Shown here: one piece after another, positions 1-5,967 of the stretch
Layout of the letters: each line of letters starts with the position of its first letter
Numbering within the stretch: the first letter of the stretch is position 1
IMG/VR virus record: IMGVR_UViG_2623620506_000002
Span: 1 to 5,967 of that record
DNA length: 5,967 nt
Direction: 5' to 3' (one strand)
DNA from: a virus
Taxonomy: Duplodnaviria > Heunggongvirae > Uroviricota > Caudoviricetes
Position numbers and translations under genes: made by a program
Notes under the pieces: model-generated
Database searches by the model: none
The model's input: only the letters and a program-made list of their open reading frames with translations
Told to the model about the DNA's origin: nothing

Positions 1-758
1 TCATAGTCGGCATACCACATGGGCACGCTGTAGCGGGCGGTTGCCAGTGCCTGCAGAGTGTCGAGATCAATTGCCTGCCCTGCGCTGTCTTTCGGGCGTT
101 CCGTGGTCTTCAGTGCGGACAGCGCCCCGGTTGCCACACGCGCCGGACTGTCAGCAATGGTGACGGCGCTGTTACACAGACGGCCGGCAAGAACGCCCGG
201 TTCAAATCCAAAAATTTCCGGAACCAGCATGATTTGCGGGGCGGCGATGCCTTCCTGTAGCGTGGTCAGTTCAGCAACGTAATCTGCCCAGGTTTTGCTG
301 CCGTTATTGGCGGCAATGGTCAGAATGAACCAGATGCGGCGCTGATATTTATTGATGATGGTCTGACGTAACGCCTGTATGGCGTTGATGTCATCCTTCG
401 TGCTGACCGGTTCGGTGATCACCACGCCTTCAACTGAAACAGTTTCCTGAGCCGCCAGTATGGCGTTCTGCCATACCTGGCAGGCTGGCGTCGCTTCTTT
501 GCCCCTGCCGGCTTCCGGCAGAACGGCAACATAGAAAAAGGCATTCTGTCCGGCATTGGTCAGCGCAGACCGAAGGAAGTTCTTCAGCGGGCTGGCGTTC
601 GTTCCCAGTAGCTCATCCAGATCACTGTTGGCATTAACCGGCAGAACCTTACCTTTGTTGTTTTGTGCATTGCCCACAAACAGCAGCGTATTTTCCACGC
701 CGTCCGGCGAGCTACTGAACGTGTTGTACTGTTCAATTGTGACAGATGGCCAGGTCAT
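1..758 (-). CDS. Putative contractile tail sheath-like structural protein, 5' portion only (252 codons in window; 3' end lies beyond the window start)
   Basis: Minus-strand ATG at 758-756 with AGGAGA Shine-Dalgarno (plus 765-770, complement) 6 nt upstream. Manual translation of the frame shows no stop down to position 3. It starts 19 nt after the stop of the gpS-like gene, consistent with one operon. The N-terminus (MTWPSVTIEQYNTF...LLFVGNAQ...VLPVNANSDLDELLG...AFFYVAVLPE) resembles the N-terminal pattern of myovirus and tailocin sheath proteins as I recall them; the function is not confirmed. Confidence 0.6.
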   Translation of the reverse strand, partial: MTWPSVTIEQYNTFSSSPDGVENTLLFVGNAQNNKGKVLPVNANSDLDELLGTNASPLKNFLRSALTNAGQNAFFYVAVLPEAGRGKEATPACQVWQNAILAAQETVSVEGVVITEPVSTKDDINAIQALRQTIINKYQRRIWFILTIAANNGSKTWADYVAELTTLQEGIAAPQIMLVPEIFGFEPGVLAGRLCNSAVTIADSPARVATGALSALKTTERPKDSAGQAIDLDTLQALATARYSVPMWYADY

Positions 759-777
759 AATTTGTCTCCTGATTTTG

Positions 778-1491
778 TTATCTCGTGCCGCCGTAATGCA
801 GGCTGCGCAGCTGCGCCTCCAGAATGCGGGCAAATTCAGCATTACTGGCTCCCAGAAATGCGCGGGAGGGGATTTTGATTTCCCATACACGTTTTTTCTG
901 CTCGCCTTTCAGAATGCTGATCACCAGTCCGGCCTGCGCCATACTCATGTTTTCCATAATCCATTTCATGGAAGGTTTTCTGCGCCCCCTGCGTCCGTTT
1001 TTTTTGCTGACTGCGCCGACGGGGGCGCGAAAGCCCAGAGAAAGAAGGCGTTCTGCCTGCCGTCGTGTGGCGGGACGAGGGCGCATGGCTTCGCTGTCCC
1101 GGCGTTTTGTGGCGCGGCCTTTGATGGTTGCGCCGTGCTGTTGCACCCACGCGACCGCCCCACCATGAGAGCCGGTGTTGTAATCCCCTTTTTTGAAGAA
1201 AAGGCAGACACTTTTCCCGCTGCCGTCAACCCTGATGGCCAGCAGTTTCGGCAGTCCCAGCAGCATTTTGTTTTTATACCTGCCGCTGGCTTTATCCGGT
1301 CTTTTTCGTGGTGCCCAGGCTGCCCCCTCCGGTGTTCGCTGTGCTTTCACATTGCGTCGTGCAGCCGGTATCAGGCCGTATTTCGCAATGCGAACCAGCA
1401 GCCTTCTGGCCTTTGCCGGCGGAAGTTCTGCCTCTCTGATGGCGCGACGAACCTGCCGGAGTTGTGACTCGTTAATCACGGGGCGCGTCAT
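778..1491 (-). CDS. Phage virion morphogenesis / tail completion protein (P2 gpS / Mu gpG family), atypically long at 237 aa
   Basis: 237-aa ORF with AGGTGA SD about 7 nt upstream of the ATG at 1491. Contains the motifs I associate with this family: TPEGAAWAP near the N-terminal third and IPSRAFLG near the C-terminus. The start overlaps the stop of the upstream gene as ATGA. Confidence 0.8.
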   Translation of the reverse strand: MTRPVINESQLRQVRRAIREAELPPAKARRLLVRIAKYGLIPAARRNVKAQRTPEGAAWAPRKRPDKASGRYKNKMLLGLPKLLAIRVDGSGKSVCLFFKKGDYNTGSHGGAVAWVQQHGATIKGRATKRRDSEAMRPRPATRRQAERLLSLGFRAPVGAVSKKNGRRGRRKPSMKWIMENMSMAQAGLVISILKGEQKKRVWEIKIPSRAFLGASNAEFARILEAQLRSLHYGGTR

Positions 1492-1961
1492 GGCATCACC
1501 TGGCAGTGAAGCTGATGCGCCTGAGCCACCCAGATTTCAGGCTTTTCCAGCTGGTAACGTTTCCCGCCTCTGGGGATGGGGCCGTTTTCGTCCTCAATCA
1601 GGGTGATGGGATCAACCAGCGGCAGACTGATTTCCAGCCATGCCACTTCATTTTCATCATCCACTTCGACGTCAACGGCTGGCGCATCCGGTGCCAGGCG
1701 CTGGCGCAGGTCGCCGCCGTTGTCTGCCAGCCAGGCTTCAACCAGAGAGAACACCAAATCCGGATTCAGTTTGCGGTAGGGCCATGCGTCCCATCGCAGA
1801 AAAGCCGTATATTTTCGAACCTGCGTACATAACTGCCCGTGCCCCAGCGACTTCGTGAACGGAACGAGCGTGATGTCATCCATGTCACTGGTGAACGGAA
1901 TGCGTGCGCGTGCCGGCAGATTGTTTTCAATGAATGCCGTCAGGCTGGCGAGTTGCGTCAT
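1488..1961 (-). CDS. Phage tail completion protein, P2 gpR-like
   Basis: 157-aa ORF with AAGGAA SD upstream of the ATG at 1961; its stop overlaps the start of the gpS-like gene (ATGA at 1488-1491). Size, position immediately upstream of the gpS-like gene and a central LVEAWLADNGGDL segment resembling P2 gpR (from memory) support the call. Confidence 0.65.
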   Translation of the reverse strand: MTQLASLTAFIENNLPARARIPFTSDMDDITLVPFTKSLGHGQLCTQVRKYTAFLRWDAWPYRKLNPDLVFSLVEAWLADNGGDLRQRLAPDAPAVDVEVDDENEVAWLEISLPLVDPITLIEDENGPIPRGGKRYQLEKPEIWVAQAHQLHCQVMP

Positions 1962-1970
1962 ACCATTTCC

Positions 1971-2465
1971 TTAATCAATCAGCGCGATGGATGCACGCGG
2001 TCGGCCCAGCAGCGCCCGCACCGCCATGGCCGCTTCAGCCAGCAACGTCCGGCGGCTTTCGCTGACTTCTGATGATGGCTGCGCCTCGCGCCGCCCCACG
2101 CTGGCAGATTCCGGCAAAAGATCGGCCTTTGCGCGGGCATACACAGCCTTGGTGTACAGTGCTGTAATGTGGTTCTGCATCCGTTCAGGTTGTGCATCCG
2201 TATTGCGCGGCTCTGGTTGCAACACGGTGTAACCCGGAATATCAGCGGCCCGGATGTGGCCCTGTTCCTGCCAGTATTCACGGCGTGCAGCCAGTTCAGT
2301 GTTAATCTCTGTTACCGCGCAAAGCAGCGCCGTCAGCACCGTTTCGTGTGACGTGACGGCGGGGATGCTGCGGCTCTTTTCAAAATCGCCGGCATCAATA
2401 TCCGGCCAGAATCCATCGTTCTGAATAATGGCCTGCTGATAGTGAATGCTTTTCCCGTCAAACAT
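1971..2465 (-). CDS. Phage head completion/stabilization protein, P2 gpL-like
   Basis: The frame is open from 2660, but the best start is the ATG at 2465 with GGAG 8 nt upstream, giving 164 aa. The FWPDID motif about 18 residues from the N-terminus and the size match P2 gpL as recalled. The upstream in-frame extension would overlap the gpM-like gene by 97 nt and has no good initiation context. Confidence 0.8.
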   Translation of the reverse strand: MFDGKSIHYQQAIIQNDGFWPDIDAGDFEKSRSIPAVTSHETVLTALLCAVTEINTELAARREYWQEQGHIRAADIPGYTVLQPEPRNTDAQPERMQNHITALYTKAVYARAKADLLPESASVGRREAQPSSEVSESRRTLLAEAAMAVRALLGRPRASIALID

Positions 2466-2563
2466 GCTCACTCCGGGGAAAGGCGGGCTGACCGGTTTCC
2501 GCAGTGTGCTGATGGCTTTTACCGGCACACCTCCACCGCGCCCGCCCGGTTGTTGGGAGTCGT

Positions 2564-3274
2564 TTACGTGCCCTGCAACGCGCGCAGTCTTGCGGCAATG
2601 CGCTGGCGCAGGGTTTTCACCTGAATTTTTGGATGCAGCCAGGCAGCCTGTTCCAGACACTGGTCGGCCTGTTGCAGTCTCTCCGGATCGTTAATTGCAC
2701 TGGCCAGCGGTTTACCGTCATCGCCGCGCAGCAGCAGGACGCCTGCAAAGCGCCAGTAGCGGGCAGCAAGGCGTTCATTCACGCGCCATTTGTCACGGAT
2801 TTTTTCAAACACCTGCTGAAAATATGGCGCGATACTGTTCCCACGTTCAGCTTCGGTTTCTGCCCATTCAAGAATGAAATGGACCACAAACGTTGGCAGC
2901 TCGCTTTTGAAGTTCTCCGGCGTCTTTTGCCCCTGCTCAATGGCAATGTCAGCCCACTGCAGCGCCATCTCAAACTGCCCGGTATCGAACAGCCAGATGA
3001 TGCAGTACACCAGAATGGGATTCTGATAGACGCGTTCCCCCTCCAGATAAGCCTGTGCGTGTGGCAGCCAGCGGGGCAGCAGCGTGTTCCGTTTGAATTC
3101 CAGCTTGTCAGACAGCAGCTCCATGTTGTGCAGTTGTCTGATGTCATTATCCAGTGCCATCAGCTTAATGTGCTGACTCTCTGTGCTGATGGCGCTCCCG
3201 TCCGTTCTGGTCATGAGCGCCGCACGGCGCTCATCCATCTGTCGGGCACGTTGTCGCTGCATTGGCGTTGGCAT
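2564..3274 (-). CDS. Phage terminase small (endonuclease) subunit, P2 gpM-like
   Basis: 236-aa ORF starting 17 nt after the capsid gene stop, with GGAG upstream. The N-terminus (MPTPMQRQRARQM) and internal LLPRWLP and LLRGDDG segments resemble P2 gpM as recalled, and the position after the capsid gene fits. Confidence 0.85.
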   Translation of the reverse strand: MPTPMQRQRARQMDERRAALMTRTDGSAISTESQHIKLMALDNDIRQLHNMELLSDKLEFKRNTLLPRWLPHAQAYLEGERVYQNPILVYCIIWLFDTGQFEMALQWADIAIEQGQKTPENFKSELPTFVVHFILEWAETEAERGNSIAPYFQQVFEKIRDKWRVNERLAARYWRFAGVLLLRGDDGKPLASAINDPERLQQADQCLEQAAWLHPKIQVKTLRQRIAARLRALQGT

Positions 3275-3291
3275 ACCGTGCGCTCCGTTTA

Positions 3292-4305
3292 TCAGGCGAT
3301 GGTGACCGCAGACTCATCCACGGCAGCATATAAATCCGGATCGCCCAGGGCGTACCCCTCGTAACGCCAGTATGAGTTTTCGAACTGTTTGCGATCGCCC
3401 ACATCTTCCGCTTTACGACGGCGGGAACCCTTCAGCGTCAGGATCTGCAGGTTTGGCAGCATGGTCACCACCATACGTTTGCCCGGCATAAACGGCGGAA
3501 TGATGGCCTTGCGGCCTGCAATGTTCTTCGTCAGCAACTGTGCGGCCACTTTTTCGGTAGGCTTGTCCTCTTTGTTGTAGAGGCGCAGCTCCTCGGCGGC
3601 CACAAGGTCAGCACCAACCAGCACGGTAAGGCGTGGATCGTTGTGATACTGCGCCGGGATGTAAGTGCGGATCAGATCGGACGCCATGGCATCCAGCCCC
3701 ACGTAATCGCCGCCGTCACCCAGGGTAACGGCGTCTGTCAGAATACGGGAGGTATTGCCTGGCTGTTCTCCCCACTTACGGGCGATTTCATGCCAGCCGA
3801 TGTTGACGTCTTCGCCGTTCGGGTGACTTTCCGGGTCAGAGTTTTCCGCTGCTGTTTTACCGTTAAAGCCAATGCGCAGCATATCCAGCGCAAAGTTGGT
3901 GACGGCGGCGGAGTTCATCAGGTTGAAAAATTCCTGCGGGCTGCCGGCATTCGCCCAGATGGCGAGTTGTTCCCAGGTGATCACGCAGCAGGAATCAGTT
4001 TCAACGAGTTTAAATTCGTTGCCTTTGATGCCCGAACCTTTAGCGAAACGACCGCTTTTCACGCGACCGGTGCGCAGTGTGGATTCGCCCACGGTGACGA
4101 CCTGCCCCTGCGGGTGCGGAACGTCCATGCAGGTGATGAAATTCAGAAACTCCGTGCTTTCCAGCAGGGCTTTACGCAGAGCAATACTGCGTGGCTCGGT
4201 CAGCGAAAAGAAACGATCGCTTGATTTCCCGCAGTCACTGAATGTTTTTTGCAGTTCGCTGATGTACTGATTAACCAGCTTTTGTGCTTCTGGTGTCATG
4301 TTCAT
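3292..4305 (-). CDS. Phage major capsid protein, P2 gpN family
   Basis: 337-aa ORF with GGAGAG SD 7 nt upstream of the ATG at 4305. Conserved blocks (GFNGKTAAENSD, IGWHEI, GGDYVGLDA, DPRLTVLVGADLVA) agree with the P2 gpN family as recalled. It lies directly downstream of the scaffold gene. Confidence 0.9.
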   Translation of the reverse strand: MNMTPEAQKLVNQYISELQKTFSDCGKSSDRFFSLTEPRSIALRKALLESTEFLNFITCMDVPHPQGQVVTVGESTLRTGRVKSGRFAKGSGIKGNEFKLVETDSCCVITWEQLAIWANAGSPQEFFNLMNSAAVTNFALDMLRIGFNGKTAAENSDPESHPNGEDVNIGWHEIARKWGEQPGNTSRILTDAVTLGDGGDYVGLDAMASDLIRTYIPAQYHNDPRLTVLVGADLVAAEELRLYNKEDKPTEKVAAQLLTKNIAGRKAIIPPFMPGKRMVVTMLPNLQILTLKGSRRRKAEDVGDRKQFENSYWRYEGYALGDPDLYAAVDESAVTIA

Positions 4306-4319
4306 TGAGTTCTCTCCGG

Positions 4320-5210
4320 TTACACCAGGTTAAAAGTTTCGCCACCGGCCGGATTGTTGCCCGGCAGCTTCGTGGCGTCCTTGCTGAGTTCAGCAAATGC
4401 GGTTTCCATACTGGTAACCTTCTCCGCGATGGCGTTCACTGTGGAGAACAGCTTTTCGCCCTGCTCGGTGGTCAGCGTGAAGGTTTTGTCGTCCTTGTTG
4501 TTCTGTTCTGCGTTGTCCTGCCCCTGATCGCCGGTGCTGCCTTCCGGCTTGTTATCACCGGTATCTTTCGGGGCATCCTTCGCGCTGAACTGCGCGACGT
4601 TTTCTTCCAGTTTGTCCAGGCGTTCGCCGGTTTTGTTGATAGCGTCCATCAACTGGCCGAACTGTTTTTCGTTCATATCGTTTTCCTGTTTGTTGCGTCC
4701 CACGGAGAAAAGGCCGGAAAAGAAACTGCGTTTGGCCTGCTCGTCGTCAGACTGCAGCGTGAAATTCAGTTCTTCTGCATTCCCCATGTGAATGGAATCT
4801 CCCTGCGAAAATTGCAGGCGGGTGGTGTTGATGCTGGCCGGTGTGTCAGTCACAGCGATACCGGATACAAAGAATTTGCCTGTTCCCAGGTAGTTTTCCT
4901 TTACCTCTATGGAGGTGAAAAGTTTTTGTCCAGCCTCGTTGGCTTCGGTCAGAAAGCGGTTGGGTATCAGGCGGGCTTTCAGCTGCACTTTATCACCGAC
5001 TTTTTCCGCCTTCAGTGCATCAACAAGACCATAGTTATTGGTGAAAGCACGCCAGCCGGCGCTGGCATGAAACGGCCAGAGCATGGCGGTGTGTTCGTCC
5101 GGGTTATAAACCTCGGCGGCATCCGTCAGCCACTTTGGATCAATTTCCCGACCGTCGATGGTGGGGCCTGAAGTGGCTACGACCACCCAGTCTGTTTTCA
5201 GTTTCGACAT
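4320..5210 (-). CDS. Phage capsid scaffolding protein, P2 gpO family
   Basis: 296-aa ORF. The N-terminus (MSKLKTDWVVVATSGPTIDGREI...VDALKAEKV...IAVTDTPAS) resembles P2 gpO as recalled, and the C-terminal half is a polar, acidic low-complexity segment typical of scaffolding proteins. It is the first gene of the minus-strand operon, divergent from the terminase ATPase gene. Confidence 0.9.
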   Translation of the reverse strand: MSKLKTDWVVVATSGPTIDGREIDPKWLTDAAEVYNPDEHTAMLWPFHASAGWRAFTNNYGLVDALKAEKVGDKVQLKARLIPNRFLTEANEAGQKLFTSIEVKENYLGTGKFFVSGIAVTDTPASINTTRLQFSQGDSIHMGNAEELNFTLQSDDEQAKRSFFSGLFSVGRNKQENDMNEKQFGQLMDAINKTGERLDKLEENVAQFSAKDAPKDTGDNKPEGSTGDQGQDNAEQNNKDDKTFTLTTEQGEKLFSTVNAIAEKVTSMETAFAELSKDATKLPGNNPAGGETFNLV

Positions 5211-5404
5211 CTGAATTAACCCGCTGATAAAAATTAAACTGGCGTTATTTAACGGAGAAATAAAAATGTCGTCATCTGATTAATTTCCGGTACTTTCGGA
5301 TATGCGTATATATCCGAAAAATACCGAAAAGCGATATTCGTTTTTAAAAAAGCCTTTGCTGAAAATGCATAAATTAAAATTGCATCAGCAGGTGAGGTTT
5401 ATTT
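5211..5404. promoter_or_regulatory. AT-rich divergent intergenic control region between the scaffold operon (minus) and the terminase ATPase operon (plus), presumed to carry the late promoters
   Basis: 194 bp that is visibly AT-rich against GC-rich flanking coding sequence, bounded by two divergent start codons. Contains a dyad-symmetric element and a candidate -10 hexamer TAAAAT at 5375-5380. No transcription start can be determined from sequence alone. Confidence 0.55.
5294..5319. repeat. Inverted repeat TTTCGGATAT-N6-ATATCCGAAA (perfect 10-bp arms); candidate regulator binding site
   Basis: Read directly from the sequence: 5294-5303 tttcggatat, spacer gcgtat, 5310-5319 atatccgaaa, which is the exact reverse complement of the left arm. 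Related TTCCGG (5285-5290) and CCGAAA (5324-5329) half-sites flank it. Confidence 0.6.
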
Positions 5405-5967
5405 ATGGCGTATTCTGATGAGGTGATTGCTGCTGCAAAATCGCTCTATCTGAAAAGACACACACCAAAAGAAATACAAAAGAAGCTCGGACTGAACAGC
5501 CCGCGAATTGTTTATTACTGGGCGACAAAGTTTGAGTGGTACACACAGCTTAATACTGAAGGCGTGGAAGATGTTATCGCCCGTCGTCTCGCTGTACTGG
5601 CGGAGCGTGATCATAAAACGCCGGAAGAGCACGATGAACTCGATCGCCTGATTGGTCATCACGTCAAACTGATGTCGGTCAGGAACAAGCACACGGAACG
5701 AATGGCCGAGATTGAACGAATGGGAGCGGATATTCCCCAGTCTGGTCGTTATGGAAAAGAAGAACGCGGAGAAAAAGGTGCAGGTAAGAAAGAGCGCCCC
5801 CGCAAAGCTAATGACGTTTCCGGACTGACTGCTGAAAGTTTTGAGCCGTTTACGAAAAAGTTGTTTGCTTATCAGTTGCATCTGCGTGAAAACAAATTCC
5901 GCCGTGTACGCAACCTGCTTAAATCCCGCCAGATTGGGGCGACGTATTACTTCGCGTTTGAGGCATT
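5405..5967 (+). CDS. Phage terminase ATPase (large) subunit, P2 gpP-like, N-terminal 187 codons (continues beyond window end)
   Basis: ATG at 5405 with GAGG SD about 9 nt upstream. Manual translation (MAYSDEVIAAAKSLYLKRHTPKEIQKKLGL...FRRVRNLLKSRQIGATYYFAFEA) shows no stop to the window end. The SRQIGATYYFA segment matches the conserved N-terminal region of P2-type terminase ATPase subunits as recalled, and the divergent placement relative to the scaffold gene is the P2 arrangement. It is absent from the ORF track only because it has no stop in the window. Confidence 0.85.
   Translation, partial: MAYSDEVIAAAKSLYLKRHTPKEIQKKLGLNSPRIVYYWATKFEWYTQLNTEGVEDVIARRLAVLAERDHKTPEEHDELDRLIGHHVKLMSVRNKHTERMAEIERMGADIPQSGRYGKEERGEKGAGKKERPRKANDVSGLTAESFEPFTKKLFAYQLHLRENKFRRVRNLLKSRQIGATYYFAFEA

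What the first reader, a model, noticed from the sequence alone, without database searches (positions are those of the whole stretch)
1..2465. Gene order departs from P2: head completion gene followed directly by R-like, S-like and sheath-like genes, with no X or lysis cassette
In P2 the gene after L is X, then the lysis cassette (holin, endolysin, lysA/B), then R and S, then baseplate and fibre genes, with the sheath gene much further on. Here the L-like gene stops at 1971 and the R-like gene starts at 1961 (overlapping ends), R and S overlap as ATGA, and 19 nt after S a sheath-like gene begins. The lysis module and gene X are therefore absent from this position and the sheath gene has been brought next to the tail completion genes. 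This suggests a mosaic or rearranged lineage pairing a P2-type head and packaging module with a differently organised tail module, with lysis genes located elsewhere in the element.
Basis: partly seen in the sequence, partly recalled or inferred. Interest (0 to 1): 0.5.

Follow-up and report, generated by a model that had tools for sequence, protein, structure and literature searches.

The report
Ordinary HP1-type P2-family prophage late operon

Summary
On the minus strand the window encodes gpO, gpN, gpM, gpL, a gpR-family protein, a gpS-family protein and the first 252 residues of a DUF2586 tail sheath. The start of the large terminase gene diverges on the plus strand. One detail is wrong: L and R do not overlap; a 9-nt spacer separates them.

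The order is not a departure. HP1 (sequenced 1996), K139, phiO18P, ESSI-2 and SI7, from five Peduoviridae genera, all show O-N-M-L-R-S-sheath-tube followed by the lysis genes, tail chaperone, tape measure and baseplate genes. A near-identical E. coli prophage (98% nt identity) has the same layout. So does a metagenome scaffold that encodes the identical S protein.

Head and tail proteins are both closer to HP1-type phages than to P2 (capsid 58% against 29%; sheath 55% against no match). This argues against a recent P2-head/foreign-tail mosaic. The ancient tail-module difference between the HP1 and P2 subgroups is already published.

The prophage lineage has no close isolated phage, but it is annotated in 42 complete E. 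coli genomes. Interest is low.

The parts
1..758 (-). 5' part (252 codons) of the tail sheath gene (DUF2586 family, the HP1 orf23 type), cut off by the end of the contig
   Evidence: The product matches PF10758 at E 1.3e-68 and phrog_907 'tail sheath' at E 2.4e-84. It is 46-55% identical to the sheaths of HP1, phiO18P, ESSI-2 and SI7. An AlphaFold model of the 97%-identical full-length protein P0001 matches solved contractile sheath proteins: the top 37 Foldseek hits are all sheaths, best 3hxl at E 2.6e-10.
778..1491 (-). gpS-family tail completion / Neck1 gene (237 aa), with an insertion of roughly 80 residues, rich in basic residues, relative to P2 gpS
   Evidence: The product matches PF05069 at E 1.5e-8 over residues 11-87 and phrog_26 at E 1.9e-24. 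P2 gpS finds it by tblastn at E 6e-6. In the alignment with HP1 orf22, ESSI-2, phiO18P, SI7 and P2 S, only the HP1-type proteins carry the insertion. Its ATG overlaps the R stop as ATGA.
1488..1961 (-). gpR-family tail terminator gene (157 aa)
   Evidence: The product matches PF06891 P2_Phage_GpR at E 8e-16, covering 1-137 of the protein and 1-130 of the 133-position profile, and phrog_65 'tail terminator' at E 3.8e-22. It is 41-45% identical to the ESSI-2 and SI7 homologues.
1971..2465 (-). gpL head completion / head-tail adaptor gene (164 aa)
   Evidence: The product matches PF05926 at E 2.9e-28 and phrog_71 at E 3e-36. RefSeq uses the same start in the 98%-identical prophage. The longer GTG-2660 ORF only reflects the mechanical ORF rule.
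2564..3274 (-). gpM small terminase subunit gene (236 aa)
   Evidence: The product matches PF05944 at E 1.2e-36 and phrog_74 at E 6.2e-65.
3292..4305 (-). gpN major capsid protein gene, P2 family (337 aa)
   Evidence: The product matches PF05125 at E 3.5e-83 and phrog_70 at E 6.8e-105. It is 58% identical to ESSI-2 and 29% to P2.
4320..5210 (-). gpO capsid scaffold / protease gene (296 aa)
   Evidence: The product matches PF05929 at E 2.1e-40 and phrog_73 at E 5.2e-66.
5211..5404 (.). AT-rich spacer between the divergent O and P operons, holding a perfect inverted repeat TTTCGGATAT-N6-ATATCCGAAA at 5294-5319 (candidate late-activator site; this role is inferred)
   Evidence: GC falls to 0.44 here and the inverted repeat is reported. 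A whole-locus scan finds one similar dyad per genome, always in the O/P spacer, in HP1, ESSI-2 and phiO18P, and none in P2 or SI7.
5405..5967 (+). 5' part (187 codons) of the gpP large terminase gene, cut off by the end of the contig
   Evidence: The frame is open from ATG 5405 to the window end. RefSeq annotates a terminase large subunit from the same position in L001. The contig's own gene call carries PF06056 Terminase_5 (L009).

Best explanation
The window is a complete 5,967-bp contig (LCVG01000082.1 of assembly GCA_001637625.1). It carries the first part of the late operon of an HP1-type member of the P2 family (Peduoviridae), which sits as a prophage in Escherichia coli.

As in P2, two divergent late operons start from an AT-rich spacer. 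One runs P(terL)-Q(portal). The other runs O-N-M-L: scaffold, capsid, small terminase and head completion.

In the HP1-type branch the second operon continues straight into the neck and tail genes. These are gpR (tail terminator) and gpS (tail completion, translationally coupled to R by an ATGA overlap), then the DUF2586 sheath and the HP1-orf24-type tube. Only then come holin and endolysin, followed by the tail chaperone, tape measure, baseplate and fibre genes.

Shown here: the gene identities, the order, the junctions, and collinearity with five described HP1-type phages. Inferred: that the genes form one transcript driven by an Ogr/Delta-like activator, and that the contig's own downstream genes match those of its 98%-identical relatives.
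For: - Gene identities come from the Pfam and PHROG searches.
- The junctions were read directly from the sequence.
- The window matches 42 of 5,426 complete E. coli genomes, and 41 of them cover at least 80% of it.
- The best match, E. coli EC42405 (98.1%), is a prophage of about 38 kb between raiA and pheL. Its late region runs Q, P | O, N, M, L, R, S, DUF2586 sheath, tube, holin, M15 endolysin, chaperone, DUF6890, tape measure, DUF2590, baseplate J, tail protein, fibre.
- A metagenome scaffold that encodes the identical S protein has the same order, and its tube gene hits PF10772 'Phage_HP1_Orf24'.
- HP1 (orf20-24, hol, lys), ESSI-2, phiO18P, SI7 and K139 show the same order. P2 has L-X-Y-K-lysA-lysB-R-S, with FI and FII about 8 kb further on.
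- Every late protein is closer to the best-matching HP1-type phage than to P2. Portal: 54% to HP1, 37% to P2. Large terminase: 58% to ESSI-2, 44% to P2. Capsid: 58% to ESSI-2, 29% to P2. Small terminase: 47% to ESSI-2 and SI7, 24% to P2. Sheath, tube, tape measure, J and I: 36-61% to HP1-type phages, no match to P2.
- The predicted sheath fold matches solved sheath proteins.
- The literature states that the six capsid genes keep the P2 order in HP1 phages while the tail genes generally show no similarity to P2 (PMC2771037). It also states that the tail module of the HP1 subgroup is a much older paralogue of the P2 one (PMC10612066).
Against: - Nothing contradicts this reading.
- The contig ends inside the sheath gene and inside terL, so the tube, lysis and baseplate genes of this exact genome were not seen. 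They are inferred from relatives.
- No isolated phage is close. The best nucleotide matches cover at most 16% of the window at 67-72% identity, so virion production by this lineage is unproven.
- A thin five-sequence profile of DUF2586 proteins did not detect P2 FI by hhalign. The sheath assignment therefore rests on the PHROG match, the fold match and published HHpred results.
Confidence: 0.95

Rival explanations
1. This is a recent mosaic. A P2-proper head and packaging module was recombined with a foreign, differently organised tail module, producing a new arrangement.
For: The capsid genes belong to P2-named Pfam families, while the sheath, tube, tape measure and baseplate proteins have no BLAST-level match in P2. 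The integrase, the C repressor and the fibre assembly protein are closest to P2, at 54%, 52% and 40%. So some local mosaicism does exist elsewhere in the prophage.
Against: The head proteins are themselves closer to HP1-type phages than to P2. The head-tail junction L-R-S-sheath is identical in five described genera. The pairing is therefore ancient and inherited rather than new. PMC10612066 places the tail-module split at the separation of the HP1 and P2 clades.
Confidence: 0.03
2. This is a decayed prophage in which a deletion removed X, the lysis cassette and the intervening genes, which brought the sheath gene next to R and S.
For: The element is known only as a prophage, and prophages often decay.
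Against: All seven ORFs are intact, with tight or overlapping junctions. The same order occurs in plaque-forming phages such as HP1 and K139. Holin and endolysin are present downstream in the relatives. A deletion in a P2-type genome could not create this order, because in P2 the sheath is a different protein family (FI).
Confidence: 0.01
3. The order is an assembly artefact: a chimeric short contig joins unrelated pieces.
For: The window is a whole contig of only 5,967 bp from a draft assembly.
Against: Forty-one complete E. coli chromosomes cover at least 80% of the window in a single place, 15 of them all or nearly all of it, at up to 98.1% identity.
Confidence: 0.01

Closest known systems
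Haemophilus phage HP1 / HP2 (Hpunavirus, Peduoviridae), the type of the 'HP1-like' subgroup
   Same: The late-gene order is identical: Q, P | O, N, M, orf20 (L), orf21 (R), orf22 (S), orf23 (sheath), orf24 (tube), hol, lys, and on to tape measure, baseplate and fibre. It has the same DUF2586 sheath (46% identity), tube (51%), long S protein and baseplate set.
   Different: Protein identities are only 28-57%. The R homologue is not detected by tblastn at E 1e-3. HP1 uses a cI/cox switch and a different endolysin, and its M and L genes overlap, whereas here a 98-nt spacer separates them. The host is Haemophilus.
Cronobacter phage ESSI-2 (Seongnamvirus), Salmonella phage SI7 (Irrigatiovirus) and Yersinia phage vB_YenM_324, the enterobacterial HP1-type Peduoviridae
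   Same: These are the closest isolated phages. Against ESSI-2 and SI7: capsid 47-58%, large terminase 55-58%, sheath 55%, M15 endolysin 77-80%, J 60-61%. ESSI-2 and SI7 have the same order throughout the late region.
   Different: Nucleotide similarity is patchy, covering at most 16% of the window at 67-72%, so this prophage lineage would fall outside those genera. It is larger (about 38 kb), has a P2-like integrase and C repressor, and carries ParM/StbB-like genes.
Enterobacteria phage P2 / 186 (Peduovirus, Eganvirus), the P2 subgroup
   Same: It has the same divergent Q-P / O-N-M-L capsid cluster and the same gpR and gpS families. An Ogr/Delta-type zinc-finger gene is present. The integrase, C repressor, holin Y and fibre assembly protein G have homologues here at 39-54% identity.
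   Different: P2 places X, Y, K, lysA and lysB between L and R, ends the O operon after S, and puts FI and FII in a separate F operon. Its sheath, tube, tape measure, V, W, J, I, U, D and X proteins give no significant match here.

Membership tests
HP1-type subgroup of Peduoviridae (late-gene layout) | Divergent capsid and packaging cluster, Q-P on one strand and O-N-M-L on the other, all from the P2-family protein families | tested here: met
   O, N, M, L and the start of P lie in the window. Q is seen next to P in L001 and L008.
HP1-type subgroup of Peduoviridae (late-gene layout) | L is followed directly by a gpR-family gene and a gpS-family gene, with no X or lysis genes between them | tested here: met
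   The junctions are 9 nt and -4 nt. The same holds in HP1, ESSI-2, phiO18P, SI7 and K139.
HP1-type subgroup of Peduoviridae (late-gene layout) | A DUF2586 (HP1 orf23-type) sheath gene directly follows S, and an HP1 orf24-type tube gene follows it | tested here: met
   The sheath gene starts 19 nt after S and matches PF10758 at E 1.3e-68, and its fold matches solved sheaths. The tube gene (PF10772 Phage_HP1_Orf24, phrog_1182) was seen only in relatives L001 and L008, because the contig ends.
HP1-type subgroup of Peduoviridae (late-gene layout) | The lysis cassette lies between the tube gene and the tail chaperone and tape measure genes | not testable with these tools
   The contig ends inside the sheath gene. 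The feature is met in the 98%-identical prophage L001 and in scaffold L008, which encodes the identical S protein.
HP1-type subgroup of Peduoviridae (late-gene layout) | Structural proteins are more similar to HP1-subgroup phages than to P2-subgroup phages, and the tail proteins have no BLAST-level match to P2 | tested here: met
   See the per-gene tblastn table and the reverse search with P2 proteins.
P2-type subgroup (Peduovirus layout) | The order L-X-holin-endolysin-lysA-lysB-R-S, with the FI/FII sheath and tube genes in a separate distal operon | tested here: not met
   No ORFs lie between L and R. P2 X, K, lysA, lysB, FI and FII give no significant match in the whole prophage L001.
Mu-type myovirus late region | Mu-type head genes (a Mu F-like protein, the Mu I protease, the Mu T capsid), with the gpS-family gene G placed before the protease gene (recalled from memory) | tested here: not met
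   The head genes here belong to the P2 families PF05929, PF05125, PF05944 and PF05926. The S-family gene follows L and R rather than preceding the scaffold gene. No Mu genome was fetched for direct comparison.

The most novel reading that the evidence does not exclude
The most novel reading left open is modest. This E. coli prophage lineage, present in 42 of 5,426 complete genomes, may be an undescribed genus-level member of the HP1-type Peduoviridae. It would combine an HP1-type virion module with a P2-like integrase and repressor and ParM/StbB-like partition genes. The conserved TTCGGA...TCCGAA dyad between its divergent late operons may be the unrecognised binding site of the late activator in HP1-type phages.
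Probability: 0.4. Interest if true: 0.15.

Novelty: already known. Interest (0 to 1): 0.07.

Why it matters
It matters little. The result removes a false lead. A gene order that looks aberrant against P2 alone is the textbook order of the sister subgroup typified by HP1, K139 and phiO18P. The practical lesson for the scan is to compare P2-family windows with both reference layouts, P2 and HP1, before flagging synteny differences. The only small residual value is taxonomic: an uncharacterised E. coli HP1-type prophage lineage, and a candidate late-promoter operator.

Tried and rejected
- Megablast of the window against 50,697 phage records found no match. The 'distant' mode gave only patchy matches, at most 16% coverage and all to HP1-type Peduoviridae.
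- phmmer of the sheath, S-like and R-like proteins against PDB sequences found nothing significant.
- hhalign of a five-sequence DUF2586 profile against P2 FI found nothing (probability 0.1%). BLASTP of the R-like protein against P2 gpR was marginal (E 0.059). These pairs are too divergent for such thin comparisons, so I used a structure prediction and a fold search for the sheath instead, and the full-length Pfam hit for R.
- An Rfam scan of the window gave no family at gathering score.
- I folded the 98-nt M-L spacer to look for an RNA element. The result was not better than shuffles (z -0.63), so I dropped it.
- The sigma-70 scan found no promoter-like site, and the terminator-like sites were not above the shuffle expectation (12 against 8.2 +/- 2.9). 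This gives no evidence for an operon boundary between L and the sheath gene.
- Esposito et al. 1996 (the HP1 genome paper, PMC145952) is not held in the library. The HP1 order was therefore taken from the GenBank record.
- A literature search for 'DUF2586' returned no listed paper that uses the term.
Full report
**What is in the window.** All the real genes but one lie on the minus strand.
- gpO scaffold/protease: 5210-4320
- gpN major capsid: 4305-3292
- gpM small terminase: 3274-2564
- gpL head completion: 2465-1971
- A 157-aa gpR-family protein: 1961-1488
- A 237-aa gpS-family protein: 1491-778
- The first 252 codons of a DUF2586 protein, starting at 758 and running off the window end

On the plus strand, after a 194-nt AT-rich spacer, the large terminase gene (gpP) starts at 5405 and runs off the other end. 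Pfam and PHROG searches support every assignment above the curated cut-offs. The long ORFs on the opposite strand (for example 556-1467 + and 4284-5171 +) are shadow ORFs of these genes.

**Check of the observation.** The coordinates are right. The R/S ATGA overlap and the 19-nt gap between S and the sheath gene are right. The parenthetical 'overlapping ends' for L and R is wrong. The L stop is TAA at 1973-1971 and the R start is ATG at 1961-1959, with GGAAATGGT between them. No room exists for X or lysis genes between L and the sheath gene.

**Is the DUF2586 protein really a sheath?** Sequence searches against solved structures found nothing, and a thin profile did not detect P2 FI. I therefore collected homologues and aligned 40 of them, with the 97%-identical full-length protein P0001 placed first. 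The predicted structure had mean pLDDT 73 and pTM 0.64. A Foldseek search against the PDB returned only contractile sheath proteins in its top 37 hits. These included the DSY3957 and Lin1278 prophage sheaths, the sheaths of phages 812, Milano, A-1(L), PhiTE and T4 (gp18), and those of PVC, diffocin and other contractile injection systems. The best hit had E 2.6e-10. TM-scores are modest, about 0.4, as expected for multi-domain proteins whose domains can sit at different angles. The assignment stands.

**Where the window comes from.** The window is an entire 5,967-bp contig, LCVG01000082.1 of assembly GCA_001637625.1 (L009). It matches 42 of 5,426 complete E. coli genomes, always on the chromosome, and 41 of them cover at least 80% of it. 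The best match is E. coli EC42405 at 98.1%. There it is part of a prophage of about 38 kb between raiA and pheL, which encodes an integrase, a P2 C-like repressor, a P2 A-like replication nickase and an Ogr/Delta zinc-finger protein. Its late region runs Q, P | O, N, M, L, R, S, sheath, tube, holin, M15 endolysin, tail chaperone, DUF6890, tape measure, DUF2590, baseplate J, tail protein, then fibre and fibre assembly, followed by three more baseplate-type genes. A 19.7-kb metagenome scaffold that encodes the identical S protein shows the same order, and its tube gene hits the Pfam family named Phage_HP1_Orf24.

**Is the order unusual?** It is not. A tblastn search with the sheath found 76 phage records, hosted by Vibrio, Escherichia, Pseudomonas, Pseudoalteromonas, Salmonella, Pasteurella, Aeromonas, Haemophilus, Cronobacter and Yersinia among others. 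I read the annotated maps of five of them, from five Peduoviridae genera: HP1, ESSI-2, phiO18P, SI7 and K139.
- All five show O-N-M-L, then the tail terminator (R), the tail completion/Neck1 protein (S), the sheath and the tube.
- After the tube gene come holin and endolysin, then the chaperone, tape measure, DUF2590, J-like and I-like genes, the fibre genes and three distal baseplate genes.
- K139 has one extra 53-aa ORF between S and the sheath gene.
- K139 and phiO18P have a small zinc-finger gene before the holin.

P2 has L-X-Y-K-lysA-lysB-(lysC)-R-S, then a terminator, with FI and FII about 8 kb downstream in a separate operon. The HP1 layout has been public since the HP1 genome was sequenced in 1996. 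Lavigne et al. 2009 (PMC2771037) split the P2 group into 'P2-like' and 'HP1-like' viruses. [quoted passage not shown] A 2023 analysis (PMC10612066) extends the HP1/P2 subgroup split to all Peduoviridae genera. It concludes that one of the two clades acquired a much older paralogue of the tail module.

**Test of the mosaic idea.** I ran tblastn with every late protein of the prophage against HP1, ESSI-2, phiO18P, SI7 and P2, and the reverse search with P2 proteins.

| Protein | Best HP1-type match | P2 |
|---|---|---|
| Portal (Q) | 54% (HP1) | 37% |
| Large terminase (P) | 58% (ESSI-2) | 44% |
| Capsid (N) | 58% (ESSI-2) | 29% |
| Small terminase (M) | 47% (ESSI-2, SI7) | 24% |
| Head completion (L) | 42% (ESSI-2, SI7) | 28% over 41% of its length |
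| Sheath, tube, tape measure, DUF2590, J, I | 36-67% across the four phages | no match |

The head and tail modules therefore have the same nearest relatives. This is not a P2-proper head joined recently to a foreign tail. Local mosaicism is visible only at the usual places. The integrase and C repressor are nearest to P2 (54% and 52%). The fibre assembly protein is nearest to P2 G (40%). A fibre fragment matches the C-terminal part of P2 H at 55% identity.

**How it most likely works.** The gene order follows the assembly pathway. Scaffold, capsid and small terminase build and fill the head, and gpL completes it. gpR (tail terminator) and gpS (tail completion/Neck1) form the head-proximal end of the tail. 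Sheath and tube polymerise on the baseplate.

The short or overlapping junctions (9, -4 and 19 nt) point to one transcript that starts in the O/P spacer, and to translational coupling of R and S. So does the lack of promoter or terminator signals above chance. This step is inferred. Late transcription is presumably activated by the Ogr/Delta-like protein encoded next to Q in the relatives. That step is also inferred, by analogy with P2.

**Things seen in passing.**
- The O/P spacer holds a perfect inverted repeat, TTTCGGATAT-N6-ATATCCGAAA, at 5294-5319. A scan of whole loci at up to 5 mismatches finds exactly one related dyad in each of HP1, ESSI-2 and phiO18P, always in the O/P spacer. It finds none in P2 or SI7. 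This is a candidate operator for the late activator.
- The S protein of HP1-type phages (227-237 aa) carries an insertion of about 80 residues, rich in basic residues, that P2 gpS (150 aa) lacks.
- No Rfam family matches the window, and the M-L spacer does not fold better than shuffled sequence.

**Verdict.** The element is an ordinary HP1-type Peduoviridae prophage. It has no close isolated phage, but it is already present and annotated in dozens of complete E. coli genomes. Interest is low.

Noticed in passing
window 5294-5319 (within the O/P spacer 5211-5404): A perfect 10-nt inverted repeat, TTTCGGATAT-N6-ATATCCGAAA, lies between the divergent O and P operons. A related TTCGGA...TCCGAA dyad is the only hit in the whole genomes of HP1, ESSI-2 and phiO18P, each time in the same spacer. 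P2 and SI7 have none. It may be the late-activator (Ogr/Delta-like) binding site of HP1-type phages.
   Followed up: partly
window 778-1491 (-), residues about 110-195 of the 237-aa S-like protein: The gpS-family protein carries an insertion of about 80 residues, rich in basic residues (conserved motif RQAKKLR.LGY...GKR..RKPS...I.ETMS.AQAGLLIRKLKG). HP1, ESSI-2, phiO18P and SI7 share it, and the 150-aa P2 gpS lacks it. Its function is unknown.
   Followed up: partly
window 1-5967: The window is a complete short contig (LCVG01000082.1, assembly GCA_001637625.1). Both ends cut genes, the sheath at one end and terL at the other. The contig probably broke at prophage sequence that is repeated or variable in that draft assembly.
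   Followed up: partly
window 2466-2563: A 98-nt non-coding spacer lies between M and L. A spacer of about 100-170 nt sits at the same place in P2, ESSI-2, SI7, K139 and phiO18P, but not in HP1, where M and L overlap. Its predicted RNA fold is not better than shuffled sequence (z -0.63).
   Followed up: partly
L001 28611-30562: The related EC42405 prophage carries ParM/StbA-like and Plasmid_stab_B-like partition genes and an Rrf2-family regulator between the replication gene and ogr. This is unusual cargo for an integrated P2-family prophage.
   Followed up: no
L001 9847-10836: A pseudogene annotated 'shikimate transporter' sits inside the tail-fibre region. The C-terminal part of P2 fibre protein H matches there at 55% identity over 134 aa, so the RefSeq name looks like a misannotation of a fibre-gene remnant.
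   Followed up: partly
L001 2278-5196: Near the raiA end of the L001 locus, beyond the last baseplate-type genes of the EC42405 prophage, lie an ATP-dependent nuclease gene, a YafO-family toxin gene and a neighbouring small gene. These may be defence or addiction cargo, comparable in position to old/tin of P2.
   Followed up: no
L008 6166-7186 and 10715-11720: In the metagenome scaffold that encodes the identical S protein, the O gene and the 5' part of the sheath gene are not called as full-length genes. Only an 81-aa and a 136-aa product are called. Frameshifts or assembly errors in that scaffold are the likely cause.
   Followed up: no
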